From: an uncultured Spirochaetales bacterium | Lineage (GTDB): Bacteria > Spirochaetota > Spirochaetia > SPDA01 > CAZSGZ01 | Reading direction: 5' to 3' | DNA length: 64,000 nucleotides | Assembly (NCBI GenBank): GCA_964440465.1 | Contig: CAYTSI010000005.1 | Span: forward strand, 151 to 64,150 | Part shown: positions 12,175 to 58,476 of the stretch, piece after piece | How the letters are laid out: each line of letters begins with the position of its first letter | Position numbering within the stretch: the stretch's first letter is position 1 | Translations under genes and position numbers: made by a program | Notes under the pieces: generated by a model | What the model was told of the DNA's origin: nothing | Seen by the model: the letters and a program-made list of their open reading frames with translations, nothing else | Databases searched by the model: none

Positions 12175-14651
12175 TCATCCGGGACCTGCACATTCATACC
12201 TTCGGGGACTTTCAGGATGTCCGGCTGCAGTTTGCAGACGGGTGTAATATTGTCCTTGGTGAAAATGAAGCGGGTAAGTCAACGGTTTTCAATGTAATCG
12301 ATCATCTGCTGTTTACTCCCGTCAAGCTGACGAAGCGTGAAATGGAAAAAAGCTTGAATCGATGGTTTCCCGTTGGAGGCGGGGATACGTTGAGCGCGGA
12401 ATTATCTGCCGAACTCGGGGACAGAGCTGTTCGGTACTTCAAGTGCTGGGGCGGGAATCCGGAAGGAACAATTCGATTTTCACCGGGAGGGACCTATTCG
12501 GGCGATGATGCCCTCGCTGCGGAAACGGAAAAATTGTGGGGATACTCTCCGGAGACGGTGCGGCAGGTTTGCCTGCTGCGGCAGAGTACCCTCGCGGATA
12601 CGCTGCCTTCCTACCAGAATTCGAAGGAGGTATTGCAGTCTCTTACCGACATCCTGCAAAATTCTTTAATAGAAGGCGGCGGTATTTCCACCTCCGGTTT
12701 TATTGAAACTCTCCGGGACCGGTACAGCTTGTTTTTTTCAAGATGGGACAGAGACCGGAACTATCCGGAAAAAAACAGAGGGATTGAAAATCCATGGTCG
12801 GTAAACGTGGGTACGGTTTTGAAATGGTGGTATGAAATGAAGCGGGCCGAGTTAGAGGTCCGGCGGGTAGAGCAGCTGGAAGACTCAATATGTTTACTGC
12901 AGAGCAGCCAAAAAGAAAAAAAGAAGGAAACGGCAGCTCTCGAGTCGTTTCTTTCTGCCTTTGAGACAGTCTACAACACTGCCGGAGACAGAAAAAGCCT
13001 GGAATTGGAACTGCGGGAAATTATCGGTACGATGGAGCGGATAAAGAAAGACAGTCAATCCTGGGGACGGGGGAGGGATGGTCTTGAACAGGCGCTCCGG
13101 GAGCGGAAAGAAGGGAACGAAGAACTTGGAAAGCTCCGCGGGCGGATCGAAAGCAGGGATGAAGTAACGGCGAAACGGAAACGGTTCGAAAAATATCGTC
13201 GGCTGCTGGAGGTGAAAACAAAACTCGACGCCCTGGAGGCAAAGCTCAGAGAACAGCCGGCAATACCGGAAAAGGATTTGCAGGCACTCCGTGAATCAAG
13301 GTTGGCAATTCGGGAAAGTGAGGTGAAACTGCAGTCCGGAACACTCTTTGCACAGCTGACCGCGAAGAAAAATATCAGTTTTTCCTATACTCCCGGATTG
13401 GGCACTGAAAAGCGGCGTGACCTTATGGCAGGGAATTCGCTTGAAATAACGGCGGAAGGGAAAATTCGGCTGAGCCACGAAGACTGGGAGCTGGATGTTT
13501 ATTCGGGAAACGAAGATTACGAAACCGTCAAAAAGGAGCTGGAGGCAGGCAAAAAAGAGTTTAACGCTCTCTGTGAGAAGTACGGTGTTGTTTCCGTCGA
13601 GGAAGGAGAAGCACAGCGGAAGGTTTATACTGATCTGGAAGGGGAAACGGCACGGGCGCGGAAACAATTTTCCGAGGAACGCGGAGAGGACTCTTTTGAA
13701 GCCCTGAAGAAGGAAGTCGAAAGTTTTGGGGCCCTTCCTGAGGAAACCGACAGTACCGAGCTGGGAAGAGAATACGGTTCTCTCAATGAACGGCTTGCCG
13801 CGCTTGAAAAAACAATACAGGAACATCGGGAACGGTTGTCGTATTTGGAAGAGACATATGGGACGGAGGAAAAGCTTCTGGACATGCTCGCGGACCTCCG
13901 CGGCCGGCAGCGGGACTTGGAGAAACAAGTGGCTGCTCTTCCGGAAATTCCTGACCCCTTCGAAACGGCGGAAGAATTTCTTGAGGCATACAGGGAAAAA
14001 CAAAGAAAAAGGGAGACGCTCCGTCAGGAAATATTTGAGTTAGATAAGGCGGCCGCCCTTGCGGTAAAAGACCTCCCGGACATCTCCCTCGAGGAGCTCG
14101 AAGCGGACGCTGAAGCCGCGCGGCGGCGTTTTCAATCCGCGCTTTCGGAGGGGGAGACAATCGGCCGGATTCTCGAGACAGCGCTGCGGATCCAAAAAGA
14201 AATTCAGGAGAACCCCTATACCGCCTTTATGGAGGCGGCGGAAGCAAACCTTAAAAAAATGACCGGGCAGAGGCTGCAGTATAAAAGCAGATCAGGCGGG
14301 GGGGACGGTCAGGCAGCGGCCCCTTTTCACGGTGATGTTAGAAACAGCCGGGGAGAAATTCTGGCGTACGGACAGCTTTCAGGCGGAACGAAAGACGCGG
14401 TTTCTCTAGCCGTCCGGCTGGCAATGGCGGAGTATTATCTGAAAAATAAAGCAGGGTTTCTCCTCTTTGATGATCCCCTAGTGGAAATGGACCCGCGGCG
14501 CCAGAAGGCCGCCGCCGAACTGCTTTCCGAAACCGCCCGGCGCTACCAGTCGATAATCTTTACCTGTCATCCCCACATGCGCGATTTATTCCCGAATGCC
14601 AATGTAATTGAGCTGCATCGGGACGGGGAACGGAGGCGTGTTAAATTTTAA
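12171..14651 (+). CDS. SbcC/Rad50-like AAA ATPase with a long coiled-coil insert (YhaN type). It is translationally coupled to the upstream nuclease by an ATGA overlap.
   Basis: It has Walker A (GENEAGKST), a long E/K/R/L-rich coiled-coil centre, the ABC signature LSGGTKDA, Walker B/D-loop (LLFDDPLVEMD) and an H-loop (FTCH). No CxxC zinc hook was seen. Confidence 0.8.
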   Translation: MIIRDLHIHTFGDFQDVRLQFADGCNIVLGENEAGKSTVFNVIDHLLFTPVKLTKREMEKSLNRWFPVGGGDTLSAELSAELGDRAVRYFKCWGGNPEGTIRFSPGGTYSGDDALAAETEKLWGYSPETVRQVCLLRQSTLADTLPSYQNSKEVLQSLTDILQNSLIEGGGISTSGFIETLRDRYSLFFSRWDRDRNYPEKNRGIENPWSVNVGTVLKWWYEMKRAELEVRRVEQLEDSICLLQSSQKEKKKETAALESFLSAFETVYNTAGDRKSLELELREIIGTMERIKKDSQSWGRGRDGLEQALRERKEGNEELGKLRGRIESRDEVTAKRKRFEKYRRLLEVKTKLDALEAKLREQPAIPEKDLQALRESRLAIRESEVKLQSGTLFAQLTAKKNISFSYTPGLGTEKRRDLMAGNSLEITAEGKIRLSHEDWELDVYSGNEDYETVKKELEAGKKEFNALCEKYGVVSVEEGEAQRKVYTDLEGETARARKQFSEERGEDSFEALKKEVESFGALPEETDSTELGREYGSLNERLAALEKTIQEHRERLSYLEETYGTEEKLLDMLADLRGRQRDLEKQVAALPEIPDPFETAEEFLEAYREKQRKRETLRQEIFELDKAAALAVKDLPDISLEELEADAEAARRRFQSALSEGETIGRILETALRIQKEIQENPYTAFMEAAEANLKKMTGQRLQYKSRSGGGDGQAAAPFHGDVRNSRGEILAYGQLSGGTKDAVSLAVRLAMAEYYLKNKAGFLLFDDPLVEMDPRRQKAAAELLSETARRYQSIIFTCHPHMRDLFPNANVIELHRDGERRRVKF

Positions 14652-14667: not shown

Positions 14668-15645
14668 TTATGAATCGAAGCTGTATTCCCCGCGCCATGA
14701 AACAATGTATTCCCAGACATTTCCCCGCGGCGGCCGTACCGATCCTCCTGTGCCGGGGTCGTACGTCCACGTTCCCGTAATCCCCTTTTCCGCGGCGGCG
14801 GCTTCGAAATGATACATTGCAATTCCCGTATCGATCCGCTGTAGGTCAATGTGCTTCCTGAAAAGCCCGTAAGCTCTGTCCCTTTGCAGAAAAAAATGCA
14901 CCAGGTTCTCCGCTTTCCCGCTGCCCCGGAAGGTGATTATCAGCCGCCATGGCTGCTTGTTTGATGCCGAGGGAGCAAGTCGCACGCATTCGAGAATGAT
15001 CTTTGTTTTTTCGGAAACTTCACTGGGTTGCAGAGGTTTGAGGGGGACAGAGCTGCAGGTAACGAAAAACAGTTTTTCCCACGGTTTCCGGCGTTTCGAT
15101 CCCGCGGCAAATCTGATGAAGCGTGCAGCCGGCCGCCTACGTTCCGCCGGATATCCCACAGGTGTTATTGCAGGGATAATTTCGTTGTCTGGAAGATTGA
15201 GGTATTCTGAAAGTTTCCCGCGCTGAAAAGTTCCCCCGAGCCAGCAGGTCCCGAGGCCGAGATTCGTCAACTGCAGGATAATATGTTCAAAGGTGTAGCC
15301 GAGGTCCGTCATTTTCTGAGGGACAGAGCTGCCTTTTGAGGAATTTTCTATGTTTCGCTTCCGATTTGCAGTGTCCGCCGCGACTGATTTTTCTGTAACT
15401 GTAACAATGCCCGCGGCAAAAAGGCGTGCCCCTCGTATAAAACCGTAAGTACCAAGTGAGCTCCGCCACTCCTCCGGCATACCGGATAGGTCAATCAGCG
15501 TAAACCGGATGCGCGATCCGAACGGCGGGACAGCACCGGGATGTACGATGAGTTTTTCAATTTTATTTACCAGTTCCGGTTCGCAATGCCGCCCAGAATA
15601 AGAGCGGATCGACCTTCTCCGAAGTATTGTATCGTGTATCGTCAT
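14668..15645 (-). CDS. Nitroreductase-family flavoprotein of 325 aa. The internal Met at 15645 is preferred over 15723.
   Basis: RRRSIRSY is near the N-terminus, and GLGTCWLGG and APSASNKQPWRL are nitroreductase signatures. Confidence 0.75.
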   Translation of the reverse strand: MTIHDTILRRRSIRSYSGRHCEPELVNKIEKLIVHPGAVPPFGSRIRFTLIDLSGMPEEWRSSLGTYGFIRGARLFAAGIVTVTEKSVAADTANRKRNIENSSKGSSVPQKMTDLGYTFEHIILQLTNLGLGTCWLGGTFQRGKLSEYLNLPDNEIIPAITPVGYPAERRRPAARFIRFAAGSKRRKPWEKLFFVTCSSVPLKPLQPSEVSEKTKIILECVRLAPSASNKQPWRLIITFRGSGKAENLVHFFLQRDRAYGLFRKHIDLQRIDTGIAMYHFEAAAAEKGITGTWTYDPGTGGSVRPPRGNVWEYIVSWRGEYSFDS

Positions 15646-15836
15646 CGTCTCTTGTCGAGGGTAATTATATTCACAGGTAGGAGAATACTCTAATTGGGAG
15701 TCTACTTCTATGGGCGACCTCAAGTTTTCCCTTACTGGTCTGGAGATGTAAAGCGTTTAGGAAAATCAGCTACTTACTCTTAATGCTCCGTCCCTCATCA
15801 ACAGCACCGGTTATCGCTCACCGGTATTCGGCATTA

Positions 15837-16343
15837 TCAGCGTAACTTCATCCAAACCCGCCGCAGGAAATCATTAGGCGGCCGCTCTAATATGTCCAGC
15901 TGTCCCTTATAGATCAAACTCATGCCGCTGTATTTATAGTCTGTCGCGTATTGGACCATTTTGGCGCGAACTGGGTTATTGGCTATATAAACAAATGTGG
16001 CAAGATATTGCAGGAAACTGTGAATTATTTTGCTTTTAAACCGCTCGTTCCATACATGGCCGGTTAGCCCAAATGTTTTATTATACTGCATCGCGAAAAC
16101 GCTTAAAACCCATTGCATAATGGCCGATAAGCTCTCATTATTCAGCGGTTTTATGATGAAATGGTAATGGTTTCCCATTATACAGAAGTTTTTGATAGTG
16201 AAGCGGTATTTTTTTTTTGCCCTTCTGATGACTTCCATAAACATTTCTTGTATTTCCGGTGTTTTGAATATTACTTCTTTGCGGTTCACTCTGGAAACTA
16301 CGTGATAACTTGCCCCATACTGTAATTGCCTTGGTTTTCTCAT
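15837..16343 (-). mobile_element. REP-associated tyrosine transposase (RayT / IS200-like Y1 HUH transposase). It is a single ORF with no obvious inverted repeats.
   Basis: YHVVSRVNRKEVIF ... GNHYHFIIKP (HuH motif) ... NNPVRAKMVQYATDYKYSG (the catalytic Tyr region) closely matches the RayT/TnpA_REP consensus. The gene and its flanks are low in GC. Confidence 0.75.
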
Positions 16344-16464
16344 TCTTTACCCCCTCGAATAGTCGGTATTTTTTTTTGCCTATACTTAATAAGAAGGGGT
16401 AAATAGGATTGCTGATTTTAAAATTCGGTCATTTTTTTTATTTTTTTTGCTCTGTCCCCATCTT

Positions 16465-17661
16465 TTAGCTTTTTAACCGCTTGAGAAGTTCCCGGGCGAC
16501 AGCTGTCTCAACTTTATCCTCTGTCCCTAGCCCGCATACAGTACGGACCATGTGTTCATGTCCGTTTGCGGCCAGTTCTTCAGCGAACTGCTTGTCCCCT
16601 GGGAAAAGAATGCCGTTTTCGTCGGATCCGCGGAATGCAAACCCGGCGGCGGCTGCCTCGGCAATTGCGCTATAGGGAAGCCCGTGGGTTTCGGCTAAAA
16701 GCATTGCTCCGACCAGCCTATCGTCTTTGGCAAGTTTCCGTTGAAGGTCCCGGCCGACCCGGAAAATGGTATCACCCAATGCTTTATTTCGGAACCTGTT
16801 TAGAAGGTCGCCAATGTGTTCTCGGAGCGCGTCCAGAGAGAGATCGGCCGGGTACGCGGCGTGAAGGGCTTCTCCTGACTGTTCCATTGCTTTTTGTACT
16901 TTATCCTTAATTTCCGGAAGCTCAAGGGGTTCCCAGATGTAGGTAAACCCGGGTTCCTTACGATATCCGATATACGCCGCCGCCGCGTGACCCATATTAT
17001 GAATGAACAGTTTCCTGTCTACGTAGGCGGTTATATTTTCCACTGCTTTTATCTCGGGGAAATCCGGCACTTCTCGGACAAATCCGTGTTTATCAAGGAT
17101 AAGCGTATTGTATTCTTCCGAGAATACCCACAGTGGATCTTCGTTTTTGTCTTCCTCCCGCATAATCGGTACCATTTTCCCAATACTCGTTTCAACCAGG
17201 CCCACTGTTTTCTGAATGGGGAAGCCGGGAGGTAGATATTTCTGCAGTTCCCTTCTAAAAAAAGCAGCTCCGTCCCTCATATTTTCAGCAATAATGATGT
17301 CGATTTTTGCCGCTTCCGTCCGCATTTTTATCCCTTCGGCAATAACGGGGATTATATGCGGTAAGACCCCCTTCCCAACAGACGTGGCAATGTACGCCGC
17401 TTTGGAAATTTCTTCCGCTACTGCAGCTCTGTCCCTGCCGTCGACGGCTCGGACACCGGTAACGAAGACCTCTTCATCTTCCTGATTGTTCCGTTTAATA
17501 ATGACACGATAGGAGTTCCTGCTGTTCAACTCCCGTATCAGCGTTTCATCAATATCGACAAAGACAACCTCATAACCGTTGCCTGCAAACACCTTCCCGA
17601 TAAATGATCTGCCGATATTTCCGGCACCGAACTGCACTAGTTTTTTCTGTTTTTCCTGCAT
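16465..17661 (-). CDS. mtlD: Mannitol-1-phosphate 5-dehydrogenase / mannitol dehydrogenase family.
   Basis: The N-terminal FGAGNIGRSF Rossmann motif and overall similarity to the MtlD family, including NMGHAAAAYIG. Confidence 0.85.
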   Translation of the reverse strand: MQEKQKKLVQFGAGNIGRSFIGKVFAGNGYEVVFVDIDETLIRELNSRNSYRVIIKRNNQEDEEVFVTGVRAVDGRDRAAVAEEISKAAYIATSVGKGVLPHIIPVIAEGIKMRTEAAKIDIIIAENMRDGAAFFRRELQKYLPPGFPIQKTVGLVETSIGKMVPIMREEDKNEDPLWVFSEEYNTLILDKHGFVREVPDFPEIKAVENITAYVDRKLFIHNMGHAAAAYIGYRKEPGFTYIWEPLELPEIKDKVQKAMEQSGEALHAAYPADLSLDALREHIGDLLNRFRNKALGDTIFRVGRDLQRKLAKDDRLVGAMLLAETHGLPYSAIAEAAAAGFAFRGSDENGILFPGDKQFAEELAANGHEHMVRTVCGLGTEDKVETAVARELLKRLKS

Positions 17662-17794
17662 ACCCTATTATAAAGTGTTCGTGTACTCCGATACAAGCCG
17701 AGCGGGAGAGCCTGTCCTTGCCTCCGAAGGCCTTCAGTGCTCTGTCCCCGGAATTGCCGGAATTGCGGAATTGAACTGTCTGCCATTGCACTAG

Positions 17795-18769
17795 ATGATC
17801 ATATTTGAAATACTAAAGAAAAGTGAGGCTGATGTGAAACCAGTAATAACTGCATATGGCGAGGCCCTGTGGGACCTTCTGCCGGAAGGCCCGGTCTTAG
17901 GCGGGGCATTGCTGAATTTTACCTACCGGGCAAAGAGCTTAGGCGCTGACGCGGAATGTATCAGCAGGCTCGGTATGGACGATTTGGGGGACAGAGCTGC
18001 CGGAAAAATGAACGACTTGGGGTTTGATATGAATTATATTCAGAGGGACAGTGCTCACTCTACCGGGACGGTCCCAGTCAGTTTTGATGAACAGAAAAAT
18101 CCCAGCTATGTCATTACCCCGGAGGTTGCGTTTGATTTTATTGAAGACACGGAAAATCTTGAGGCCAGAATACAACAATCCGACTGCCTCTGCTTCGGGA
18201 GCCTTATTCAGCGCGCTCCGGTTTCGCGGGAAACCCTCTACAAACTGATCGAGCAATTCGGGGGCAGGTACCTGCTTTTCGATATCAATTTACGAAAAGA
18301 CTGTTATTCCTCCAAAACGGTGCGCACGTCCCTGGAAAAATGTCATATTGCGAAGCTCAATGAGGACGAACTGCATGAGCTTAAAGAATTAATTGGAATT
18401 TCCGGGAATTCAGTCCGGAAACTGACGCAATCCTGTGTTGAAACCTACGGTTTGACCTATTGTCTCGTAACTTTAGGAGACAAGGGGCTTTTTGCCGCGG
18501 CTGATTCGGGGACAGAGGTGTATGTTCCGGGTATTGTCGTCGACCTTGTCGACCCGATTGGTGCCGGGGACGCCTGTACGGCAGGGTTTATTTTTTCTCT
18601 CCTGCAGGACAGTCCTCTCGATTACGCGTGCAAATATGCCAATGCAATCGGTGCGGCGGTCGCGGAAACTTCCGGGGCCACCGGTTTTGTATCGAAAGAG
18701 CGGATCGAAGCGGTCCTCCGCGGTGGGGACTATTCGGAGCCTCATCCAGAATTTCGGAGGAAGTACTGA
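17795..18769 (+). CDS. PfkB-family carbohydrate kinase, ribokinase/fructokinase-like.
   Basis: DPIGAGDACTAGFIFSL is the PfkB signature 2. An N-terminal GG dipeptide motif region is also present. Confidence 0.8.
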   Translation: MIIFEILKKSEADVKPVITAYGEALWDLLPEGPVLGGALLNFTYRAKSLGADAECISRLGMDDLGDRAAGKMNDLGFDMNYIQRDSAHSTGTVPVSFDEQKNPSYVITPEVAFDFIEDTENLEARIQQSDCLCFGSLIQRAPVSRETLYKLIEQFGGRYLLFDINLRKDCYSSKTVRTSLEKCHIAKLNEDELHELKELIGISGNSVRKLTQSCVETYGLTYCLVTLGDKGLFAAADSGTEVYVPGIVVDLVDPIGAGDACTAGFIFSLLQDSPLDYACKYANAIGAAVAETSGATGFVSKERIEAVLRGGDYSEPHPEFRRKY

Positions 18770-19090: not shown

Positions 19091-19119
19091 CCCGGCGAAG
19101 CCGGCAAACCTGCCGCGGT

Positions 19120-19130
19120 GGGGACAGAGC
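19120..19130 (+). repeat. Intergenic copy of the hyper-abundant motif GGGGACAGAGC.
   Basis: An exact match to the core 10-mer that is seen 19 times in the window. Confidence 0.7.
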
Positions 19131-19156: not shown

Positions 19157-19185
19157 TTGACAGGGGACAGAGCCGAAGGTAAACT
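19157..19185 (+). promoter_or_regulatory. Sigma70 consensus promoter for the downstream secreted-protein gene: TTGACA, a 17-bp spacer, then TAAACT. The spacer is itself a copy of the GGGGACAGAGC motif (19163-19173).
   Basis: Read directly as gTTGACAggggacagagccgaaggTAAACT. It is followed by an aaggag RBS and a GTG start at 19204. Confidence 0.5.
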
Positions 19186-23561: not shown

Positions 23562-25399
23562 GAAAACATCATGCTGTTCACGTAATCGTCCATAAACTCC
23601 GGCGAAGATGACAATTCAATATATTCGGTCTGTTCACTCAGTGCCCCGCATTCCTGTAATTTTTCCCGGGACAGCAGCGCCATAATCGCGCCGGAGCCGG
23701 CTGCATTGCCGATAACTTCAATCTTGTTTTCCAGTTCTTTGGGAATAAGGCCGATATGTATTGCGTGATGTTTATCGATATAGCTGCCGAATCCGCCCGC
23801 GAGGAACACCCGTTCGATATCATGAACGCTCTTACCGGCGGTTTTCATGAGGGTGGTTATTCCCGCTGCAATTGAAGCTTTCGCGTTTTGCACCTCCCGT
23901 ATGTCCTTCTGGGTAAGAAGAATTGCATCGCCGTGGGACGTATCTTCAGCCTTTACCAAGGTGTAGGCGGTCTGTTTGTCGAGTTTGGTCAGGTTTTCCG
24001 CTAAATGCTTTCCGGTTTCGTTTTCTATATCATCGGCATCAACCATCCTGCCGGTTTCATCGATAATACCGGCATAGAGCAGGTTGGAAATGGCATCCAC
24101 AATTCCGGAACCGCAAATGCCTAAAGGTTTTTTATCGGCAATGGTAGTACAGGATATCGATGAATCGTGAAGGGCGACCGTATCGATTGCTCCGGCTATT
24201 CCTCCGACTCCGTCCCTGATGGTGGCGCCTTCAAATGCCGGTCCGGCCGCGGTGGAACAGGAAAGCAGCCGGTCCTTGTTTCCGAGCATAATTTCACCGT
24301 TTGTTCCGATGTCGATGAGGAGGCTCAAGCTTTCTTCTTTTGCCATTCCGCTGGCCAATGTAGCGGCGGTAATGTCCGCGCCGATATAGGCTGAAATCCC
24401 GGGCAGCAGATAGATCCACCCCTGTTCGGCAATGGCAATCCCCATTTCAGCCGCGGTTGTCCGCGTCATTTCCAGACTGGCGGGGATAAAGGGCGCCGCG
24501 GCGATATTTTTCGGAGGTATTCCCGCCGCGAGGTGCATCATGGTGGAGTTCCCCACGATGGTCATGCTGTAGATGCTCTTCCGGTCAATTGCATATTTGG
24601 AGACAAGCGAATCGATGAGGTCATTCAGCTGCCCGATAATGCCGTTGTGCAGTGTTTCCAAGCCCTGTTCATTCGTCATGGTGTGATTTATCCGGGCAAT
24701 AACGTCCTGTCCGTAACTTTTCTGCACGTTCAGGCCGGAGGCCACGCCGATTTTTTTCCCGGAAGTCATGTCTAAAAGATAGACGACCACGGTTGTTGTC
24801 CCGATATCCACCGCCAGGCCGTAATTGATATCTTCGGTGTTCCCCTGCTCGATGGTCAGAATCTGCGCGTCGTTGTAGACCGCGGTAGCGGAAAAACCGT
24901 TGTCCCGAAGCACCGAGGGCAGTTTTCCGATCTCATTCAGCGTAATCCTGTGGTCCGGCAGTTTGAGTTCGTCCCGAAGCCTTTTCAGGTCGTCCCGCTG
25001 GTCTTCTAAGGTCGGCTTGGAAAGGGAAACATATTTCTTTTTAATGCATGGGTTTAGATGTTCCCGAAACTCGCTGCTGTCCTCTAATATAACGATCTGT
25101 CCGGACTTGTCGTTTAAGGTAACGGTAATGTCTCCGGTTATCTGAGTAGAACAGGCAAGTCTGTATCCCCGGGCGAGTTCGGTTTCCGACAGTTTTTTCT
25201 TTTCAATTTCGGTAACGCCGGAAGCTCCGTCCCCCTCTACACGGACAAGGCATTTGCCGCAGGTCCCCCTCCCCCCGCAGGGTGTTTCGATAAACGACCT
25301 GTATTTTTCACCCACCGCTTCTAAAATCGTAGTTTCTTTTTTGCATGATACCGTTTCTGTTTCGTTTTCGGTAATAATGGTAACGTTGTATTCTGACAT
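23558..25399 (-). CDS. RACo-type ATP-dependent reductive activase of corrinoid proteins: a 2Fe-2S ferredoxin domain plus an ASKHA ATPase (DUF4445).
   Basis: The N-terminal plant-type ferredoxin motif is CGGRGTCGKC. It is followed by a Gly-rich ASKHA-fold region of about 550 aa, as in RamA/RACo. Confidence 0.7.
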   Translation of the reverse strand: MSEYNVTIITENETETVSCKKETTILEAVGEKYRSFIETPCGGRGTCGKCLVRVEGDGASGVTEIEKKKLSETELARGYRLACSTQITGDITVTLNDKSGQIVILEDSSEFREHLNPCIKKKYVSLSKPTLEDQRDDLKRLRDELKLPDHRITLNEIGKLPSVLRDNGFSATAVYNDAQILTIEQGNTEDINYGLAVDIGTTTVVVYLLDMTSGKKIGVASGLNVQKSYGQDVIARINHTMTNEQGLETLHNGIIGQLNDLIDSLVSKYAIDRKSIYSMTIVGNSTMMHLAAGIPPKNIAAAPFIPASLEMTRTTAAEMGIAIAEQGWIYLLPGISAYIGADITAATLASGMAKEESLSLLIDIGTNGEIMLGNKDRLLSCSTAAGPAFEGATIRDGVGGIAGAIDTVALHDSSISCTTIADKKPLGICGSGIVDAISNLLYAGIIDETGRMVDADDIENETGKHLAENLTKLDKQTAYTLVKAEDTSHGDAILLTQKDIREVQNAKASIAAGITTLMKTAGKSVHDIERVFLAGGFGSYIDKHHAIHIGLIPKELENKIEVIGNAAGSGAIMALLSREKLQECGALSEQTEYIELSSSPEFMDDYVNSMMFS

Positions 25400-28249: not shown

Positions 28250-28388
28250 TATATTCTCCTTACATATGAATATACAAAAATTGCCGCTCTGGAGAAAGGA
28301 TGATCTTTCTAATTTTTGTAATTCCTCTTCCTCCGTCCCCTCATTTATGGTATTTTAGCTGTGGACCCGCAAAATAGAAGGAGAAGAT

Positions 28389-42909: not shown

Positions 42910-43671
42910 CTATACTCCTCGAACTTCGCAGTTGATGCCCGTTTCTCGGACGATTTCAGCCGCGCGGCGCAGTTCAGTCCCGAAATAGGGACAGAGCTCG
43001 CTGAACGCGGGGTCGAGGGTCGTGCCGGGCCTGAATTGCGTCAGAATGTACCTGCCCGCGCTTTGCGGGTCCCGGGCCGCCGAAGTATAAGCCGATTTCA
43101 GGAGTTCCGCTATTGCTGCCGCCTCCTCCGTCCCCGCTATACCCGGGGCCATGGTGGTGCGGAATTCGTGGCGCACCCCGGAAGAGATGATGATTTCAAT
43201 GCTTTGCCGCAGGGCGTTTTCCACAGTGTCGACAGCCGCGGATGCCGGAGGGACAGAGCTGCTGAGAAGGCCGTATTTCTCCGGGACCGTTTTGATGTCC
43301 ATGGCAATATAGTCGGTCCGTGCAAGCAGCGGACGAAGCAGGCGGGGAAAGCAGCCGTTCGTGTCGAGTTTTACTTTTAAACCGAGGTTTTTACAGAAAT
43401 CGATAAACCCTATCAGGTCCGTATGCAGAAGCGGTTCGCCGCCGGTAACGCAGACCCCCCCGAGGACGGAAGCGCGTTTTGCTACAAACCGCCGCACCTC
43501 TTCAATCGGCAGCAGGTCATCCGGAAACGGCGGTATAACGAGCTCGGGATTGTGGCAGTAGGGGCAGCGGAGGTTGCAGCCCGGTGTAAACACCGTGGCC
43601 GCAACCTCTCCCGGAAAGTCGATTAAGGTCGTTTTAACCAGCCCTGCCCTGGTAAGCGTCATGGCCGGCAC
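42910..43671 (-). CDS. nrdG: Anaerobic ribonucleoside-triphosphate reductase activating protein (radical SAM).
   Basis: CNLRCPYCHN is the radical-SAM CxxxCxxC motif. The size and operon context fit NrdG. Confidence 0.85.
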   Translation of the reverse strand: MPAMTLTRAGLVKTTLIDFPGEVAATVFTPGCNLRCPYCHNPELVIPPFPDDLLPIEEVRRFVAKRASVLGGVCVTGGEPLLHTDLIGFIDFCKNLGLKVKLDTNGCFPRLLRPLLARTDYIAMDIKTVPEKYGLLSSSVPPASAAVDTVENALRQSIEIIISSGVRHEFRTTMAPGIAGTEEAAAIAELLKSAYTSAARDPQSAGRYILTQFRPGTTLDPAFSELCPYFGTELRRAAEIVRETGINCEVRGV

Positions 43672-53851: not shown

Positions 53852-55759
53852 ATGAACGACAAAGAAAACCAATTTCAAAATCAATTTGACAAACTGCCCG
53901 GCTTTTCCGGCGGGGACAACGGCAACTTTTTCCGCAAATGGGGACCGCTGCTTCTCCTGCTCCTTCTGTTTACCATTCCCTGGATCGTGACCCTCTTTTC
54001 CGGAGGGGTAACCCGTACACAGGTAAGCTATTCCTTTTTTATTCAACAGCTGAACGAGGGAAATATCGAGTCCGTGCTGGTCCGCGGCGAAGAAATACAA
54101 GGAACGCTGAAGGAAAATGCCCTGACGCTGTCGACGGAAGGGGACGGCGGGGGGACGGAGGTGCGCCGGTTTACCACATTTTATCCGGCAAAGATCAGCA
54201 GTTCGCTCATTTCCGACCTCCAGGGCGGCAATGTTGTGGTATACACCCAGCCTGAAAGGGAGGGGGATTTTTTTACCGTTCTTCTGAATATTCTTCCGTT
54301 TCTTTTTATTTTCTGGATCATTTTTCGGCTTTCCAAACGGATGCGCGCCCAGGGCGGAGGGCTGTTCAATGTTGGCCGGAACAAAGCGAAAAAATATGAA
54401 AAGAAACGGCAGGAGGAAACCACCTTTGACGATGTGGCAGGGATAGAATCGGCGAAGGCCGAACTCAAGGAAATTGTCGATTTTTTAAAGAAGCCGGACA
54501 AGTACCGCAATTTCGGCGCGAAAACGCCGAAGGGAGTACTGTTAGTGGGTCCTCCGGGGACCGGAAAAACGCTCCTTGCCCGCGCGGTCGCGGGGGAGGC
54601 GGATGTGCCCTTTTTCAGCATCAGCGGTTCCGATTTTATGGAAATGTTTGTCGGTGTCGGCGCTTCACGGGTGAGAAATCTGTTTCGGGACGCAAAAAAG
54701 CAGCAGCCGAGTATTATTTTTATCGACGAACTCGACTCCATCGGCAGGAGCCGGGGCGCGGGTTTAGGGGGCGGACACGACGAGCGGGAACAGACCCTCA
54801 ATCAGCTCCTTTCCGAACTGGACGGATTCGAGCAGGACGAAAGCACAATCGTTCTAGCCGCTACCAATCGGCCGGACATTCTCGACCCCGCTCTGCAGCG
54901 CCCGGGAAGGTTTGACCGGCAGATTACCACAAATCTGCCGCCGAAGAAGGACAGAACGTCTATTCTGCGAATCCACAGTAAAAACAAACCATTGGCGGAA
55001 TCCGTGGACCTCGAGCGGCTTGCCTCGAGCACACCCGGGTTCAGCGGCGCGGATTTGGCAAACCTGCTGAACGAGGCGGCCTTGATCGCGGTAAAAAACG
55101 GGAAAAAGGAAATTGAACAGGAGGACCTTGATACGGCCAGGGACAAGGTGATACTTGGTCTTGAACGGAAAAGTGTCGTCATGAGCGACCGGGAAAAGGA
55201 GATTGTAGCGTATCACGAATCGGGGCATGCCTTAGTGGCGGCGCTCCTTCCCAATGCGGAGCCGGTCCACAAGGTCACCATTATCCCACGGGACCGTTCC
55301 ATGGGGGCGACGCAGCAGCTTCCCGAAGAAGACAGGTATCTGTATGAACTCGCCTATCTGCAGGACCGGATTTCGGTAATGATGGGAGGCCGGGCGGCTG
55401 AAAAACTGAAAACCGGTACCCTGACAAGCGGCGCGGAAAACGACTTGAAGGAGGCACAGAAACTCGCGCGGAAAATGGTCCTTGACTGGGGAATGGCGGA
55501 ACAATTCGAGAATATCGCCATGGGCAGCCAGCGGCAGAATGTTTTTTTAGGTGAACAGATCGCGGCTGAAAAAGAGTACAGCGAAGAGACAAACCGGCAC
55601 ATCGATGAAGCGGTGCAAAAACTGCTGACCGATGCTTTTAACCGGGCAACGGAAAACTTACAGGAGCAGGAGAAAGTCCTGGACGGTATTGCCGAAATAC
55701 TGCTGCGGGAAGAGGAGATATCCGGGCGGCAGATTTATGAAATGCTCCACACACAGTGA
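53852..55759 (+). CDS. ftsH: ATP-dependent zinc metalloprotease FtsH.
   Basis: It has two TM segments, AAA+ Walker A (GPPGTGKT) and Walker B (IIFIDELD), an SRH, and the HESGHAL zinc-binding HExxH motif. Confidence 0.9.
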
Positions 55760-56229: not shown

Positions 56230-58476
56230 TTGAAAAGAAACGGTAACTATATACCGGTAATTGTCGCGGGAATAATTATTTTCCTGTTTGTTACCGGAGA
56301 AATTACACTGCGGCATCTCCCCTTTCCCGAACTTGAGGCGTTTCAGAACAGGGCGTACAGTACAATAGTAACCGACAGAAACGGCACAATTCTCAGAATT
56401 CTTCCTCTCGAAGGAGGATTGAGGCGGGAATACGTTCCCCTCGAAGAACTGCGCCCGGAGATTGTCCGGATTTTTATCGAAAGCGAAGACAAGCGGTTCT
56501 CTTTTCACCGCGGTGTGGACGGTTTTGCCGTGCTGCGCGGTTTTTTTCAAAACAGACGAGCGGGACGGACGGTTTCGGGGGCGTCCACCATCTCCATGCA
56601 GCTGGCGGGTCTTGTCCGCCCGCGAAAGCAGACCGTCGGGGGCAAGGTCCTTGAAGCCTGGGACGCCCTTCGCCTGGAGGCAAAACTCTCGAAACGGGAA
56701 ATCCTCGAGCTGTGGCTAAACTCTCTCCCCTTCGGCAGGCAGGCGGAGGGTGTCGGGAGCGGCAGCAGGGCCTACTTCAATATATCCGCCGCGGACCTCT
56801 CAATTCCGGAGGCGGCCCTTCTTGCCGTTGTTCCGAGGCATCCGAAAAAGTACAGCCCCGTCGACAATCCAGAGGGCGCGTATGAAGGCGCGCTCCGCAA
56901 TGCCGGGAGGCTTCGTACGGACATTTCCGCACAGGAGCTGCGGAAGGCCGCCCGGGCCGCGGAGCCGGGAAATTTTATCTACCACGCGCCCCATTTTCTT
57001 CGTCAAATAGGGACAGAGCTCGGCGGCAAGCAGGGCGGCAGGGTAACAACCACATTGGATCTGGAACTTCAGCAGCATTTTCACCGTCTTTTGTCCACCT
57101 ATCAGCAGCGGTACGCCCAAAGCCGCATTACCAGCGCCGCCGGAATGCTCATCGACAATCATACGGGCGAAGTCCTTGCCTACGTCGGTTCACTCGACTT
57201 TTTCTCCGGCAGAGCGGGGGAGCAGCTGGACGGGGTAACCGTCCCGCGGCAGCCCGGGTCCTGTCTTAAACCCTTTCTTTACGCGGCGGCGCTGGAGGAC
57301 GGGTGGTATCCGAACACACTGCTTCCCGACGTCCCGCTCAATTTCGGCGGGGGCGAGGTATATGTGCCTTCGAATTTCACAAATTCTTTTTCCGGTCCCG
57401 TCAGGCTTCGGGTTGCCCTCGGGTCGTCTCTGAACGTACCGGCGGTCTATCTGTTGGATGAGATCGGGTTGGAACGGTTCGGGGAGCTGCTGCGGGCGGC
57501 GGGTTTTCACGTCGGAGCGGGCGCGCTTGAGAAGGCGGGCCTCGGCGCCGCGTTGGGCAATCTGGATGTCTCCCTCCTGGAACTGACCCGGGGCTTCGCC
57601 CTTTTCCCCCGGCGTGGTGTGCCCCTGGAGCTTTCATGGACACTCCCCGAAGTTTTCGAAGGGCCCTCCCCCGCGGGACGGGCCGTTTCCGAATACACCG
57701 CCGATATTATCTGCGACATCCTCTCGGACCCGGCGGCGAGGGCCCGGGGGTTCGGGTACAATTCCGCTTTTACCCTTCCCTTTCCCGCCATGTTTAAAAC
57801 CGGGACAACCGATCAGTTTCAGCACATCTGGGCCCTTGCCGCGACGCCGGATTATACCGTGGGCATATGGATGGGAAACAACACCGGGGAAACGGTAATC
57901 GGCCGGACCGGTTCCTCCGTCCCCGCGCGGATAGCGGCTGAAGTGCTTACCTTCGCGCGGAAGGGGAGGGCGGAATTCCCGGTCCCGGCGGGGGCGGTGC
58001 CGGTGGAGATCTGCACAGTATCCGGGCAGCGGGGGACGGAGCTCTGTCCCTCCGTTGTTACCGAATACCTGCCGGCGGCCGGCGGGGAAGGGGCTGTACC
58101 CGGTCCCTGTACATTTCATATACTGCGAAACGGTACGGTAACAACCGAGTATCCGGAAAAATATCATGCATGGCTGCGGGAGCTGGGCCGGTCGGGGGGA
58201 TTTTCCTTCTCCGGCGGAGAAGGCCTTGAAATTATTCACCCCCGCGGCGGAGCGGTATTTTACTATGACCCGACAGTTTCCGCCGGAGTCCAGGCGCTGC
58301 GGGTCGAGGCAGCTGCCGGCAGGCCCGGGGCCTGCACACTCTATGTAAACGGCGAAAGGGCGGGTACTGTTTTCCATCCCCCCTATGTATGGTTTTTGCC
58401 GCTTCAGCGGGGAGCGTGGGAATTGACCGTATCGAATACCGGTTCCGAGGCGACGGTGCGCGTCGAAGTCCGCTAA
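56230..58476 (+). CDS. pbpC: Penicillin-binding protein 1C, with a GT51 transglycosylase domain, a transpeptidase domain and a C-terminal PBP1C domain.
   Basis: It has an N-terminal TM segment, the GT51 motifs EDKRFSFHRGVD and RPRKQTVGGKV, an SxxK-type transpeptidase region, and a C-terminal domain. It is paired with A2M. Confidence 0.85.
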   Translation: MKRNGNYIPVIVAGIIIFLFVTGEITLRHLPFPELEAFQNRAYSTIVTDRNGTILRILPLEGGLRREYVPLEELRPEIVRIFIESEDKRFSFHRGVDGFAVLRGFFQNRRAGRTVSGASTISMQLAGLVRPRKQTVGGKVLEAWDALRLEAKLSKREILELWLNSLPFGRQAEGVGSGSRAYFNISAADLSIPEAALLAVVPRHPKKYSPVDNPEGAYEGALRNAGRLRTDISAQELRKAARAAEPGNFIYHAPHFLRQIGTELGGKQGGRVTTTLDLELQQHFHRLLSTYQQRYAQSRITSAAGMLIDNHTGEVLAYVGSLDFFSGRAGEQLDGVTVPRQPGSCLKPFLYAAALEDGWYPNTLLPDVPLNFGGGEVYVPSNFTNSFSGPVRLRVALGSSLNVPAVYLLDEIGLERFGELLRAAGFHVGAGALEKAGLGAALGNLDVSLLELTRGFALFPRRGVPLELSWTLPEVFEGPSPAGRAVSEYTADIICDILSDPAARARGFGYNSAFTLPFPAMFKTGTTDQFQHIWALAATPDYTVGIWMGNNTGETVIGRTGSSVPARIAAEVLTFARKGRAEFPVPAGAVPVEICTVSGQRGTELCPSVVTEYLPAAGGEGAVPGPCTFHILRNGTVTTEYPEKYHAWLRELGRSGGFSFSGGEGLEIIHPRGGAVFYYDPTVSAGVQALRVEAAAGRPGACTLYVNGERAGTVFHPPYVWFLPLQRGAWELTVSNTGSEATVRVEVR

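What the first reader, a model, noticed from the sequence alone, without database searches (positions are those of the whole stretch)
12417..58050. Hyper-abundant 12-13-mer (G)GGGACAGAGCTG scattered on both strands, inside genes in several reading frames as well as between genes
The core 10-mer GGGACAGAGC occurs exactly 19 times. Thirteen copies are on the + strand, starting at 12417, 15043, 15318, 17987, 19120, 19163, 33050, 34853, 35891, 42136, 42988, 43250 and 57010. Six copies are on the - strand, starting at 16449, 17424, 17739, 37053, 41956 and 58039. Near variants sit at 27214, 16519 and 18041. Eleven copies extend to GGGACAGAGCTG. Two subfamilies share longer identity: AAATAGGGACAGAGCTCG at 42985 and 57004, and CGGAGGGACAGAGCTG at 33047 and 43247. 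The expected count of any given 10-mer in 2 x 64 kb is about 0.1. Copies inside genes fall in at least three different frames. They encode G-T-E-L in the vWA, histidine kinase and PBP1C genes, and G-D-R-A in the YhaN-like and PfkB genes, with other frames elsewhere. This points to selection acting on the DNA sequence rather than on the peptide. Distribution is patchy: none in the BMC locus (0-12 kb) and none between 20 and 33 kb except the variant at 27214. Strand use is mixed, which argues against a Chi-like polar signal. Possible explanations are a DNA-uptake-like sequence, a site for a sequence-specific recombinase or endonuclease (see the RayT finding), or a restriction/modification or nucleoid-protein motif. 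None of these can be decided from this window. The near-perfect palindrome GGGACgGAGCTCTGTCCC at 58033-58050 shows that the unit can occur as an inverted dimer.
Basis: seen in the sequence. Interest (0 to 1): 0.78.

Follow-up and report, generated by a model that had tools for sequence, protein, structure and literature searches.

The report
Transposase-like gene ringed by its motif
The repeated 10-12-base word is not a genome-wide signal but the recognition sequence of one domesticated transposase-like gene in the window, and copies of it have been written by point changes into the ordinary genes around that gene, a pattern that recurs around its relatives in many related bacteria.

Summary
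It is not genome-wide. The 3.6-Mb genome holds 29 copies, 22 of them on this one 65-kb contig. With its variants (GGGACRGAGS) the contig has 43 sites against 1.3 expected.

The cluster surrounds a single-copy gene at 15840-16343(-). It encodes a REP-associated tyrosine transposase (RAYT/TnpA_REP)-like HUH endonuclease.

- In 33 further loci from the same bacterial class, homologues of this gene sit among unrelated neighbours.
- 29 of the 34 loci carry at least 5 copies of a related 10-mer within 10 kb.
- Site density falls with distance from the gene.
- The motif variant tracks the protein clade, and even the paralogue within one genome.
- Sister genera with the same neighbouring genes but no such gene have no motif.

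Sites inside genes arose by substitution, not insertion. They use all six strand/phase classes and show no halo of decayed copies. They are also indel hotspots.

This is a REPtron-like system with hairpin-less, local, mostly intragenic sites: a new variant of a known kind. How the sites accumulate is inferred, not shown.

The parts
15840..16343 (-). Single-copy RAYT/TnpA_REP-like Y1 HUH endonuclease gene (168 aa; HuH motif NHYH, Tyr motif YIANNP)
   Evidence: Pfam Y1_Tnp E=2e-15. NCBIfam REP_Tyr_transpos 80.2 bits, cut-off 80. AF2 model pLDDT 90, best PDB match 4ER8 TnpA_REP, TM 0.75. Only copy in the genome. H59, H61, Y119, N123 invariant in 28 homologues.
16449..16458 (-). Gene-proximal cognate copy GGGACAGAGC, same strand as the Y1 gene, 106 nt upstream of its start
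   Evidence: 30 of 33 loci have a sense copy within 300 nt upstream of the Y1 start. Kept exactly in G001 although its flanks diverge.
16518..16527 (-). Variant GGGACAGAGG at the 3' end of the mannitol dehydrogenase gene, 175 nt upstream of Y1
   Evidence: G001 has GGGACAGAGC at this position.
15785..15794 (-). Variant GGGACGGAGC, intergenic, 43 nt downstream of the Y1 stop
2750..2759 (-). Exact copy, antisense in the RnfC/Nuo51-like gene of the BMC locus
3238..3247 (-). Exact copy, antisense in the RnfC/Nuo51-like gene
7145..7154 (-). Variant GGGACGGAGC, antisense in the DeoC-like gene
11747..11756 (+). Variant GGGACGGAGC in the SbcD-like gene (G-D-G-A)
   Evidence: Made by substitution relative to G002/G004.
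12418..12427 (+). Exact copy in the SMC/SbcC-like gene (G-D-R-A)
   Evidence: Substitution origin. G001 has an adjacent 15-nt duplication.
13860..13869 (+). Variant GGGACGGAGG in the SMC/SbcC-like gene
14873..14882 (-). Exact copy, sense in the nitroreductase-like gene
15044..15053 (+). Exact copy, antisense in the nitroreductase-like gene
   Evidence: Kept in G001 with unrelated flanks.
15320..15329 (+). Exact copy, antisense in the nitroreductase-like gene
   Evidence: Strain variant X4 has indels 10-20 nt away.
17267..17276 (-). Variant GGGACGGAGC in mannitol dehydrogenase (R-D-G-A)
17426..17435 (-). Exact copy in mannitol dehydrogenase (R-D-R-A)
   Evidence: Outgroups read T-D-T-D at the same columns.
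17739..17748 (-). Exact copy, intergenic, inside a 67-nt segment absent from G001
17988..17997 (+). Exact copy in PfkB kinase (G-D-R-A)
18509..18518 (+). Variant GGGACAGAGG in PfkB kinase
19121..19130 (+). Exact copy, intergenic, at the 3' end of a 43-nt segment absent from G001
19164..19173 (+). Exact copy, intergenic
25224..25233 (-). Variant GGGACGGAGC in the RACo-like gene
27214..27223 (-). Variant GGGACAGAGG in the URO-D-like gene
28330..28339 (-). Variant GGGACGGAGG, intergenic
30335..30344 (+). Variant GGGACGGAGG at the end of the CobT-like gene
   Evidence: G001 has GGGACAGAGG here.
33050..33059 (+). Exact copy in the vWA gene (G-T-E-L)
34575..34584 (+). Variant GGGACGGAGG in the histidine kinase
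34854..34863 (+). Exact copy in the histidine kinase
   Evidence: G001 has an assembly gap (N run) here.
35109..35118 (+). Variant GGGACAGAGG in the histidine kinase
   Evidence: G001 has GGGACAGAGC here.
35892..35901 (+). Exact copy in the histidine kinase
36026..36035 (+). Variant GGGACGGAGC in the response regulator
36382..36391 (+). Variant GGGACGGAGG in the response regulator
37055..37064 (-). Exact copy in the ARMT1-like phosphatase gene
39296..39305 (+). Variant GGGACGGAGG in the penicillin amidase gene
41956..41965 (-). Exact copy in the LPP20-domain gene (sense, phase 2)
42137..42146 (+). Exact copy, antisense in the LPP20-domain gene
42411..42420 (-). Variant GGGACGGAGG in the LPP20-domain gene
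42988..42997 (+). Exact copy, antisense in the radical-SAM (NrdG-like) gene
43125..43134 (-). Variant GGGACGGAGG in the NrdG-like gene
43250..43259 (+). Exact copy, antisense in the NrdG-like gene
54152..54161 (+). Variant GGGACGGAGG in FtsH
57010..57019 (+). Exact copy in PBP1C (G-T-E-L)
57914..57923 (-). Variant GGGACGGAGG, antisense in PBP1C
58033..58042 (+). Variant GGGACGGAGC, left arm of the inverted dimer in PBP1C
58041..58050 (-). Exact copy, right arm of the inverted dimer in PBP1C

Best explanation
The motif is the cognate DNA site of the single-copy RAYT/TnpA_REP-like Y1 HUH endonuclease encoded at 15840-16343(-). Its consensus is R-GGGAC(A/G)GAG(C/G)-W, with GGGACAGAGC the current form in this genus. 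The locus is a REPtron-like unit whose repeat is a bare 10-13-nt word rather than a palindromic REP.

One copy sits about 100 nt upstream of the gene on the gene's strand. Further copies pile up around the gene, falling from about 3.5 per kb next to it to 0.2-0.3 per kb at 4-10 kb. In this genome they extend over at least 55 kb.

**Shown**
- The association between gene and motif.
- The fall in site density with distance.
- Co-variation of motif variant with protein clade and paralogue.
- Origin of intragenic copies by substitution in existing codons.
- Maintenance of all ten core positions.
- An excess of indels next to sites.

**Inferred**
- The protein, made at low level and acting mainly near its own gene, binds and probably nicks the single-stranded motif.
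- Either nick-stimulated, short-patch templated repair or selection for nearby binding sites then creates near-matching words and keeps them perfect. This would be a locally acting molecular drive.
For: **Locality**
- 22 of the genome's 29 exact copies lie on C5, which has typical tetranucleotide composition.
- C5 has 43 GGGACRGAGS sites against 1.3 expected, P about 1e-48.

**Protein**
- Pfam Y1_Tnp and NCBIfam REP_Tyr_transpos at its cut-off.
- The best fold match is 4ER8 TnpA_REP, TM 0.75, against about 0.5 for IS200/IS608.
- The HuH and Tyr residues are invariant.

**Association**
- Same-genus G001 keeps the cluster at syntenic sites.
- Same-family G002-G004 have the same neighbouring genes but no Y1 gene was found, and they carry 2 sites in 70.6 kb.
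- 29 of 34 Y1 loci have at least 5 copies of their top variant within 10 kb.
- No other gene is shared as a neighbour across genera.
- In complete or near-complete genomes, 15 of 25 copies (G057) and about 15 (G021) lie within 21 kb of the gene.
- Random G021 DNA has 0.007 sites per kb.

**Specificity**
- Motif variants follow the protein tree.
- In G085 the paralogues on C4 and C6 are ringed only by ..GAGG and the one on C2 only by ..GAGC.

**DNA-level constraint**
- 8 of 8 intragenic sites checked arose by substitution that changed amino acids.
- All six strand/phase classes are used.
- There are 22 exact copies, but non-family one-mismatch words number 3 against about 3.5 expected.
- 18 of 29 sites are kept between G000 and G001, against 40% of random 10-mers.

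**Activity hint**
- 12 of 32 indels between G000 and G001 lie within 20 nt of a site, against 2.5 expected.

**Precedent**
- REPs accumulate near rayt genes in some gammaproteobacteria (PMC2817692, PMC8266576).
- The repeats flanking TIRYT genes share GGGGWSAS, which GGGGACAG fits (PMC3733652).
Against: - No binding or cleavage data exist, so the protein-site link is statistical.
- Known RAYTs recognise a hairpin plus GTAG. Here sites show no hairpin beyond what their G+C content gives, and dispersed copies share no flanks. The recognition mode would therefore have to differ.
- G010 has 21 copies of GGGACAGAGC but no Y1 gene was found in it; the genome is 91% complete.
- In this window the density beyond 4 kb is patchy rather than smoothly declining.
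- Nothing separates enzyme-driven conversion from ordinary selection on point mutations.
- The related genomes are kin and the loci were chosen through the Y1 gene, so the counts overstate independence.
- The indel excess could partly reflect alignment difficulty or assembly gaps at sites.
Confidence: 0.72

Rival explanations
1. The sites are real binding sites of the Y1 protein, but they accumulate by ordinary selection on point mutations because nearby sites are useful. They might act as auxiliary operators or as a local sponge that keeps a potentially harmful nuclease bound near its gene and repressed. No enzyme-driven copying would be involved.
For: - A sense copy sits at a conserved place upstream of the gene, next to a conserved TGAAGCA-like box, in 30 of 33 loci.
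- Density falls steeply with distance, as looping or local-concentration benefits would.
- Dispersed copies share nothing beyond about 12 nt.
- Copies arise by substitution.
- There are no decayed copies, which points to purifying selection.
Against: - The benefit of any one site tens of kb away would be tiny, yet clusters reach 55-110 kb.
- This model does not explain the indel excess at sites or the tandem arrays of the word.
- HUH Y1 proteins are known as single-strand DNA enzymes, not duplex operators (PMC3479197, PMC8266576).
Confidence: 0.2
2. The word marks a chromosomal domain, as parS, matS or Ter sites do, for chromosome organisation, segregation or fork arrest. The Y1 gene would either encode the domain protein or lie there by coincidence.
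For: - Local clusters of a short word near the gene of its binding protein are typical of ParB/parS and Tus/Ter (established knowledge).
- In G021 the cluster lies roughly 80-160 kb from the GC-skew switch that marks the origin.
Against: - The Y1 gene and its cluster sit among unrelated genes in different genera.
- Genomes with 4-5 paralogues have 4-5 clusters.
- Sister genera lack both gene and cluster in the same region.
- The cluster is not at the skew switch.
- The word is not palindromic and has no consistent polarity.
Confidence: 0.04
3. The contig is foreign DNA: either a mis-binned contig or an island acquired from a donor whose whole genome is rich in this word, such as an uptake sequence or Chi-like signal.
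For: Word density of about 1 per 1.5-3 kb resembles that of uptake sequences. The motif is confined to a single contig of a metagenome-assembled genome.
Against: - C5 is among the contigs closest to the genome's mean tetranucleotide usage, rank 52 of 54 by distance.
- It carries core genes: FtsH, NrdD, PBP1C, MetA.
- Its genes are syntenic with orthologues at family-level divergence in G002-G004, which lack the word.
- In complete genomes the word is local, not genome-wide.
- None of the 31 related genomes first searched shows genome-wide abundance.
Confidence: 0.02
4. The copies are paralogous sequence from a repeated gene family or a conventional miniature mobile element (REP/MITE) inserted many times.
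For: - A few intergenic copies lie inside short segments absent from G001 (17739, 19121).
- Inverted pairs and 18-19-nt tandem arrays occur in some genomes.
Against: - Flanks are unrelated.
- Host genes are unrelated families.
- 8 of 8 intragenic copies checked replaced existing codons; 7 have no length change at all, and the eighth lies beside a one-codon difference confined to genus g2.
Confidence: 0.02

Closest known systems
REPtron: RAYT/TnpA_REP gene with its cognate REP/BIME repeats (E. coli, Pseudomonas; PMC2817692, PMC3116915, PMC3333891, PMC3479197)
   Same: - The protein family matches: NCBIfam REP_Tyr_transpos at its cut-off, 4ER8 as best fold match, and the class-2 'Y---NP' tyrosine motif.
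- The gene is single-copy and behaves like a housekeeping gene.
- The repeat flanks the gene.
- The repeat sequence co-varies with the protein lineage.
   Different: - The repeat is a bare 10-13-nt word with no palindrome or hairpin and no GTAG.
- About 85% of the copies in this window lie inside coding sequences, where they arose by substitution rather than insertion.
- Copies are confined to tens of kb around the gene instead of being dispersed in extragenic space genome-wide.
RAYT-proximal REP accumulation in marine gammaproteobacteria, Thauera and Marinomonas REPtrons Ma/Mb (PMC2817692; PMC8266576)
   Same: Repeats are concentrated around the rayt gene, within at most about 200 kb, rather than genome-wide. 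This was read as new copies being produced preferentially near the gene.
   Different: - Those repeats are extragenic palindromic REPs, and the pattern was explained by recent arrival of the gene.
- Here the local pattern is seen in 21 of 88 sampled genera of a whole class.
- It is shared at orthologous sites by two species about 11% diverged.
- It involves non-palindromic intragenic words.
TIRtron/TIRYT: RAYT-like genes flanked by non-REP inverted repeats sharing GGGGWSAS (PMC3733652; subclass 2.1 of PMC6006769)
   Same: The 5' part of the word, GGGGACAG, fits GGGGWSAS. The flanking repeats are not REPs. Moderately abundant repeat families occur in some genomes.
   Different: - There are no long terminal inverted repeats.
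- The ancestral-looking variant GGGGACGG breaks the consensus at one position.
- The protein is 168 aa, without the C-terminal helix-turn-helix extension reported for subclass 2.1 (median 238 aa).
- Dozens of local intragenic copies were not described for that family.
IS200/IS605 transposases (IS608, ISDra2 TnpA)
   Same: Same HUH/Y1 fold and presumably the same single-strand cleavage and joining chemistry.
   Different: - No subterminal hairpins and no tnpB.
- One copy per genome here.
- The fold match is clearly weaker than to TnpA_REP.
- NCBIfam transpos_IS200 scores below its cut-off.
DNA uptake sequences (Neisseria DUS, Pasteurellaceae USS)
   Same: A short word accumulates inside genes in several frames by point substitution at tolerant positions. 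It is driven by a molecular preference rather than by the peptide it encodes.
   Different: Uptake sequences are spread over the whole genome at about 1 per kb and depend on the competence machinery. This word is at chance level away from the Y1 gene.
parS/ParB and Ter/Tus
   Same: Several copies of a protein's site are clustered near the gene that encodes the protein.
   Different: - Those are duplex, mostly palindromic or strictly polar sites.
- They occur at one chromosomal landmark and involve unrelated protein families.
- Here there is one cluster per paralogue, in any genomic context.

Membership tests
RAYT / TnpA_REP protein family (class 2 TnpA_Y1) | HUH/Y1 fold with HuH motif and catalytic tyrosine | tested here: met
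   Pfam Y1_Tnp. NHYH and Y119 are invariant across 28 homologues. AF2 model pLDDT 90, best match 4ER8, TM 0.75.
RAYT / TnpA_REP protein family (class 2 TnpA_Y1) | Class-2 tyrosine signature Y---NP (PMC6006769) and the NP(L/V)(R/K)xG motif (PMC2817692) | tested here: met
   The sequence is YIANNPVRAK. Y, N and P are conserved in the family alignment. The final G is present in some homologues and is K here.
RAYT / TnpA_REP protein family (class 2 TnpA_Y1) | Curated family model score | tested here: met
   NCBIfam NF047646 REP_Tyr_transpos scores 80.2 bits against a cut-off of 80, so it only just passes. transpos_IS200 scores 32.7 against 55.
RAYT / TnpA_REP protein family (class 2 TnpA_Y1) | The N-terminal threonine reported as 100% conserved in RAYTs (PMC2817692) | tested here: not met
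   In the HMMER alignment to 4ER8, the Thr of FFTVN aligns with V in YHVVSR. The family has V, I, A or T there. The alignment is weak (E=1e-3).
RAYT / TnpA_REP protein family (class 2 TnpA_Y1) | One or few diverged copies per genome, unlike an insertion sequence | tested here: met
   One copy in G000 and one in G001. Up to 5 diverged paralogues occur elsewhere, with one 98%-identical pair in G085.
REPtron (gene plus REP repeats) | The gene is flanked by its cognate repeat | tested here: met
   A sense copy lies within 300 nt upstream in 30 of 33 loci, and downstream copies are common.
REPtron (gene plus REP repeats) | The repeat is an imperfect palindrome (hairpin) with a conserved GTAG/CGTC tag | tested here: not met
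   There is no GTAG. Flanks are random. Folding energy around sites is only slightly below background (-19.1 against -17.0 kcal/mol). Only 15 of 56 close pairs are inverted.
REPtron (gene plus REP repeats) | Repeats are extragenic and dispersed genome-wide | tested here: not met
   37 of 43 sites in the window are intragenic. Outside C5 the word is at background level. Local accumulation has precedent in a minority of REPtrons (PMC2817692).
TIRtron / TIRYT | Flanking terminal inverted repeats containing GGGGWSAS | tested here: inconclusive
   GGGGACAG fits the consensus and GGGGACGG differs at one position. An inverted downstream copy exists at variable distance (101-1103 nt in several loci), but no extended TIR was seen.
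TIRtron / TIRYT | C-terminal HTH-like extension of subclass 2.1 proteins | tested here: not met
   The protein is 168 aa. The model shows only short C-terminal helices, and no second Pfam domain was found.
IS200/IS605 insertion sequence | Multiple near-identical copies with subterminal hairpins, often with tnpB | tested here: not met
   Single copy. No conserved neighbouring gene. Below the IS200 model's cut-off.
DNA uptake sequence / Chi / KOPS-type genomic word | Over-representation across the whole genome | tested here: not met
   7 copies in 3.53 Mb outside C5, against about 6.7 expected by chance. The same holds in the complete genomes G057 and G021.
parS/matS/Ter-type chromosomal landmark sites | A single cluster at a fixed chromosomal landmark, in a conserved context | tested here: not met
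   The contexts are unrelated. Each paralogue has its own cluster. The cluster is not at the GC-skew switch in G021.

The most novel reading that the evidence does not exclude
A domesticated HUH endonuclease 'writes' its own 10-12-nt recognition word into whatever genes lie near its own gene. By nicking single-stranded sites it would trigger short-patch, templated repair. That repair would convert near-matching words into perfect ones and keep existing ones perfect. The result would be a protein-directed, distance-limited molecular drive that overrides amino-acid sequence in housekeeping genes and co-evolves with the enzyme's specificity. This would also be the missing mechanism by which RAYTs seed new repeats.
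Probability: 0.27. Interest if true: 0.86.

Novelty: new variant of a known kind. Interest (0 to 1): 0.68.

Why it matters
What RAYTs do, and how their repeats spread, has been open since 2010. The papers read here still call the dissemination mechanism unresolved (PMC5581495, PMC8266576).

This family offers an unusually clean natural system:
- The repeat is stripped to a bare word.
- The copies are countable and local.
- Their birth can be read codon by codon against sister genera that lack the gene.
- Paralogues within one genome carry distinguishable words.

That turns 'does the enzyme create its own sites, and how far does it act from its gene?' into a direct test, using oligonucleotide assays and planted near-cognate sites.

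It also has practical consequences. A single gene can reshape the protein sequences of its neighbours (FtsH, PBP1C, kinases). Such words cause assembly gaps. And local k-mer anomalies should not be read as genome-wide signals or as contamination.

Tried and rejected
- **Genome-wide signal:** rejected by whole-genome counts.
- **Mis-binning:** rejected by tetranucleotide distance and synteny.
- **Another locally enriched word in the Y1-less sister genera:** none found.
- **Hairpin context:** only a small energy difference, attributable to the G+C-rich core.
- **Sense-strand targeting:** the 2.7:1 sense bias is the same for chance copies elsewhere in the genome, so it is compositional.
- **Convergent polarity on the gene:** seen in G021, G057 and G028 but not in the pooled data. 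The pooled data show only co-orientation with the gene nearby.
- **Replication landmark:** the GC-skew switch in G021 is 80-160 kb away.
- **Conserved partner gene:** none.
- **A small mobile element at 19080-19130:** no other copy in the genome.
- **Sequencing runs:** only assembled contigs were available, from microbial-mat metagenomes, and no RNA holder was listed. Laying them gave contig breaks, one weak 229-nt joint (side 28) and strain indels near 14873 and 15320, but nothing decisive on excision or nicking.
- **Literature search for the word itself:** only irrelevant eukaryotic hits. No paper on TIRYT or REPtrons later than those cited describes this pattern.
- **The single genome-contig scan with one protein:** returned mostly distant homologues with ordinary REP-like repeats.
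- **Polarising gains against losses between G000 and G001:** not possible without a closer outgroup.

Full report
**1. The observation**

GGGACAGAGC occurs 22 times in the window: 13 on the + strand and 9 on the - strand. Dinucleotide shuffles expect 0.13. Markov models of order 1-4 expect 0.08-0.37.

Nine copies, not eleven, continue as ...CTG.

Aligning the copies gives R at -1 (13 G, 9 A). At +1 there are T (14), A (6) or C (2), never G. Flanks are otherwise random.

**2. The motif is local, not genome-wide**

The assembly has 3.6 Mb in 235 contigs. The window is C5:151-64150.

- The assembly holds only 29 copies: 22 on C5 and 7 singletons on 7 other contigs. Seven is the chance number for 3.5 Mb.
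- C5 is compositionally typical, ranking 52nd of 54 large contigs in tetranucleotide distance from the genome mean.
- The one-mismatch words GGGACGGAGC and GGGACAGAGG, and the two-mismatch word GGGACGGAGG, are also concentrated on C5.
- As the family GGGACRGAGS, C5 has 43 sites against 1.3 expected (Poisson P about 1e-48).
- The other 28 possible single-mismatch words total 3 on C5, against about 3.5 expected. The copies are therefore 'digital': there is no halo of decaying relics.

**3. What the cluster surrounds**

The window carries ordinary chromosomal genes:

- a BMC locus and an SbcCD-like pair;
- mannitol dehydrogenase and a PfkB kinase;
- a GGDEF/EAL protein, CobT and MetA;
- a vWA protein with a two-component pair;
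- penicillin amidase, NrdD/NrdG, alpha-2-macroglobulin, FtsH and PBP1C.

The densest zone has 19 of the 43 sites between 11.7 and 19.2 kb. It centres on a 168-aa gene at 15840-16343(-). The evidence on that gene is:

- Pfam Y1_Tnp;
- NCBIfam REP-associated tyrosine transposase at its cut-off, and below cut-off for IS200;
- closest solved sequence, and closest fold of a confident model (pLDDT 90), is E. coli TnpA_REP 4ER8, with TM 0.75 against about 0.5 for IS200/IS608/ISDra2;
- it carries NHYH and YIANNP, and the catalytic residues are invariant in 28 homologues;
- it is the only Y1 gene found in the genome.

**4. The link between gene and motif**

*Same-genus genome G001.* Its public record is labelled an uncultured Spirochaetales MAG. 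It has 27 copies against 5 for the control pattern. Sixteen of them lie on two contigs syntenic with C5. Most sites are at orthologous positions even where the flanks have diverged or carry indels.

*Same-family genomes G002-G004.* They keep the neighbouring genes in synteny at 30-63% protein identity. No Y1 gene was found in them by protein or Pfam search; they are 90-94% complete. They have no enriched k-mer and only 2 family sites in 70.6 kb.

*Homologues elsewhere in the class.* They occur in 29 of 151 sampled genomes, or 21 of 88 genera. I fetched 32 further loci.

- They share no other neighbouring gene across genera.
- 29 of the 34 loci carry at least 5 copies of one related 10-mer within 10 kb.
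- The 10-mers are GGGACGGAGG (the commonest), GGGACAGAGG, GGGACAGAGC, GGGACGGAGC, GGGACAGACC and GCACAGAGCT.
- The five poorer loci are mostly short contigs or have the gene near a contig end.

*Complete and near-complete chromosomes.* In G057 (4.5 Mb), 15 of 25 GGGACGGAGG copies lie within 21.6 kb around the gene. G021 gives the same picture, and in G028 the cluster spans about 110 kb. Twenty random 20-kb samples of G021 hold 0.007 sites per kb.

*Position relative to the gene (33 loci pooled, G001 left out as a near-duplicate of the window).*

| Distance from the gene | Sites per kb |
|---|---|
| under 250 nt | 3.5 |
| 0.25-1 kb | 1.1-1.3 |
| 1-4 kb | 0.6 |
| 4-10 kb | 0.2-0.3 |

Thirty of the 33 loci have a copy on the gene's own strand within 300 nt upstream. 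It is usually followed by a TGAAGCA-like box.

*Specificity.* Variants map onto clades of the protein tree, needing 10 changes against 16.9 for shuffled labels. Kin share labels, so this is descriptive. In G085 the five paralogues have separate clusters. The two 98%-identical copies on C4 and C6 are ringed only by ..GAGG, and the one on C2 only by ..GAGC.

**5. How the copies arise and persist**

- All eight intragenic sites that could be compared with the Y1-less outgroups occupy pre-existing codons and changed the amino acids. One example is T-D-T-D-R becoming R-D-R-A-A in mannitol dehydrogenase. There is no inserted segment: seven show no length difference at all, and the eighth lies beside a one-codon difference confined to genus g2.
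- The 37 intragenic sites in the window use all six strand/phase classes.
- The 2.7:1 excess on the coding strand equals that of chance copies elsewhere, so it reflects composition.
- Between G000 and G001 (89% identity), 18 of 29 sites are kept exactly against 40% of random 10-mers. Three more switch between family variants.
- Together with the missing halo of one-mismatch copies, this shows a force holding all ten positions at the DNA level.
- Dispersed copies share no flank identity beyond chance.
- Sites are indel hotspots. Outside the poorly aligned nitroreductase gene, 12 of 32 indels lie within 20 nt of a site against 2.5 expected, and 10 of 30 sites have such an indel (P about 2e-4). 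A second strain in another sample shows indels 10-20 nt from the sites at 14873 and 15320.
- In some genomes the word also forms inverted pairs and 18-19-nt tandem arrays, next to assembly gaps.

**6. Mechanism**

*Shown:* a RAYT-like gene and a word family that follows it in place, in sequence variant and across contexts. The word is created in resident DNA by substitution and is actively maintained.

*Inferred:* the protein recognises the word, probably as single-stranded DNA as TnpA_REP and IS608 TnpA do. It acts mainly near its own gene.

Two routes to accumulation remain.

- **A local drive.** Nicking at sites would provoke short-patch templated repair that converts near-cognate words and re-perfects old ones. 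I favour this modestly. It accounts together for the distance decay, the independence from context, the absence of decayed copies, the concerted change of variant, the indel excess and the tandem arrays.
- **Ordinary selection for nearby binding sites.** These could serve autoregulation or titration of a nuclease.

Neither route is tested.

**7. Comparison with what is known**

RAYT genes flanked by cognate REPs (REPtrons) are well described. Local accumulation of REPs within at most about 200 kb of the rayt gene was reported for marine gammaproteobacteria, Thauera and Marinomonas. It was read as new copies being produced near the gene (PMC2817692, PMC8266576).

RAYT-like genes flanked by non-REP repeats that share GGGGWSAS were named TIRYTs (PMC3733652). 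GGGGACAG fits that consensus.

The present family differs in three ways:

- the repeat has no hairpin and no GTAG;
- it lies mostly inside genes, where it arose by substitution;
- the local pattern is old and general across a class.

The classification papers read here do not mention spirochaete members or such intragenic words. Searches for later work found none. I therefore file it as a new variant of a known kind. The protein passes the family tests except for the N-terminal threonine. The repeat fails the defining REP features.

**8. Rivals**

- A genome-wide signal (uptake, Chi, KOPS or R-M) fails on distribution.
- A chromosomal landmark fails on unrelated contexts, on one cluster per paralogue, and on the cluster lying 80-160 kb from the skew switch in G021.
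- Foreign or mis-binned DNA fails on composition, core gene content and synteny.
- A paralogous or inserted element fails on unrelated flanks and the substitution origin.

**9. Limits**

- No biochemistry and no raw reads were available.
- The related genomes are kin and were reached through the gene.
- G010 has 21 copies of the word, scattered on 14 contigs, and no Y1 gene was found in it (91% complete). This is unexplained.
- The cluster reaches both ends of C5, so its full extent in this genome is unknown.

Noticed in passing
G010 (same order), e.g. G010:C18:18787-22157, C10, C26, C67, C89: This genome has 21 copies of GGGACAGAGC (control 5), scattered over 14 contigs. No Y1_Tnp gene was found by protein or Pfam search; the genome is 91% complete. 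It is either an orphan cluster left after gene loss or an unassembled gene.
   Followed up: partly
L069 (G048:C25) 5577-5640 and 14024-14210; G001:C12 near the sites matching window 15004 and 34854: The word forms tandem arrays with an 18-19-nt period. Runs of N (assembly gaps) sit right at or beside copies. The word seems to break short-read assemblies.
   Followed up: partly
L063 9442-10104 and L064 9531-10194 (G085:C6 and G085:C4): A 665-bp unit is 98% identical between two contigs of one genome. It comprises an inverted pair of the word (13-bp arms, 17-18-nt spacer), the TGAATCA box and most of the Y1 gene. It begins right after an upstream terminator, which suggests recent duplication or mobility of the gene unit.
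   Followed up: partly
window 16344-16448 (-) and the equivalent stretch in 30 other loci: A conserved T(T)GAAGCA / TGAATCA box lies 10-35 nt downstream of the gene-proximal motif copy and about 30-50 nt before the Y1 start codon. It could be a promoter element or part of the enzyme's substrate.
   Followed up: no
window 52892-53065 (-): A cobalamin riboswitch (Rfam RF00174, 50.7 bits) lies between the alpha-2-macroglobulin gene and FtsH.
   Followed up: no
window 43692-46351 (-): Anaerobic ribonucleotide reductase NrdD appears as two overlapping ORFs. The first (708 aa) has the ATP-cone plus NRDD positions 1-538. The second (178 aa) matches only the last 30 NRDD positions. The NrdG-like radical-SAM gene follows. 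This is either a split gene or a frameshift.
   Followed up: no
window 14668-16343 compared with G002:C254 4590-5796 and G004:C12: The nitroreductase-like gene and the Y1 gene together occupy a slot between the SMC-like and mannitol dehydrogenase genes. In the sister genera that slot holds about 1.2 kb of unrelated sequence. The nitroreductase gene is also the most diverged stretch between G000 and G001.
   Followed up: partly
window 861-12174 (+): A bacterial microcompartment locus encodes an RnfC/Nuo51-like flavoprotein, a tandem-BMC shell protein, an aldehyde dehydrogenase, RpiB, a DeoC-type aldolase and an aldo-keto reductase with Fe-S domains. This suggests a sugar-phosphate or aldehyde-handling compartment.
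   Followed up: no
window 47040-52817 (+) and 56230-58473 (+): A bacterial alpha-2-macroglobulin (1926 aa) and PBP1C lie close together, a known functional pairing. Here FtsH and the riboswitch-controlled stretch separate them.
   Followed up: no
G000 contigs C68, C32, C129: These contigs show mild excesses of GGGACGGAGG (3-5 sites each, Poisson P about 4-7e-4). They may be the chromosomal neighbours of C5 or remnants of an older cluster.
   Followed up: no
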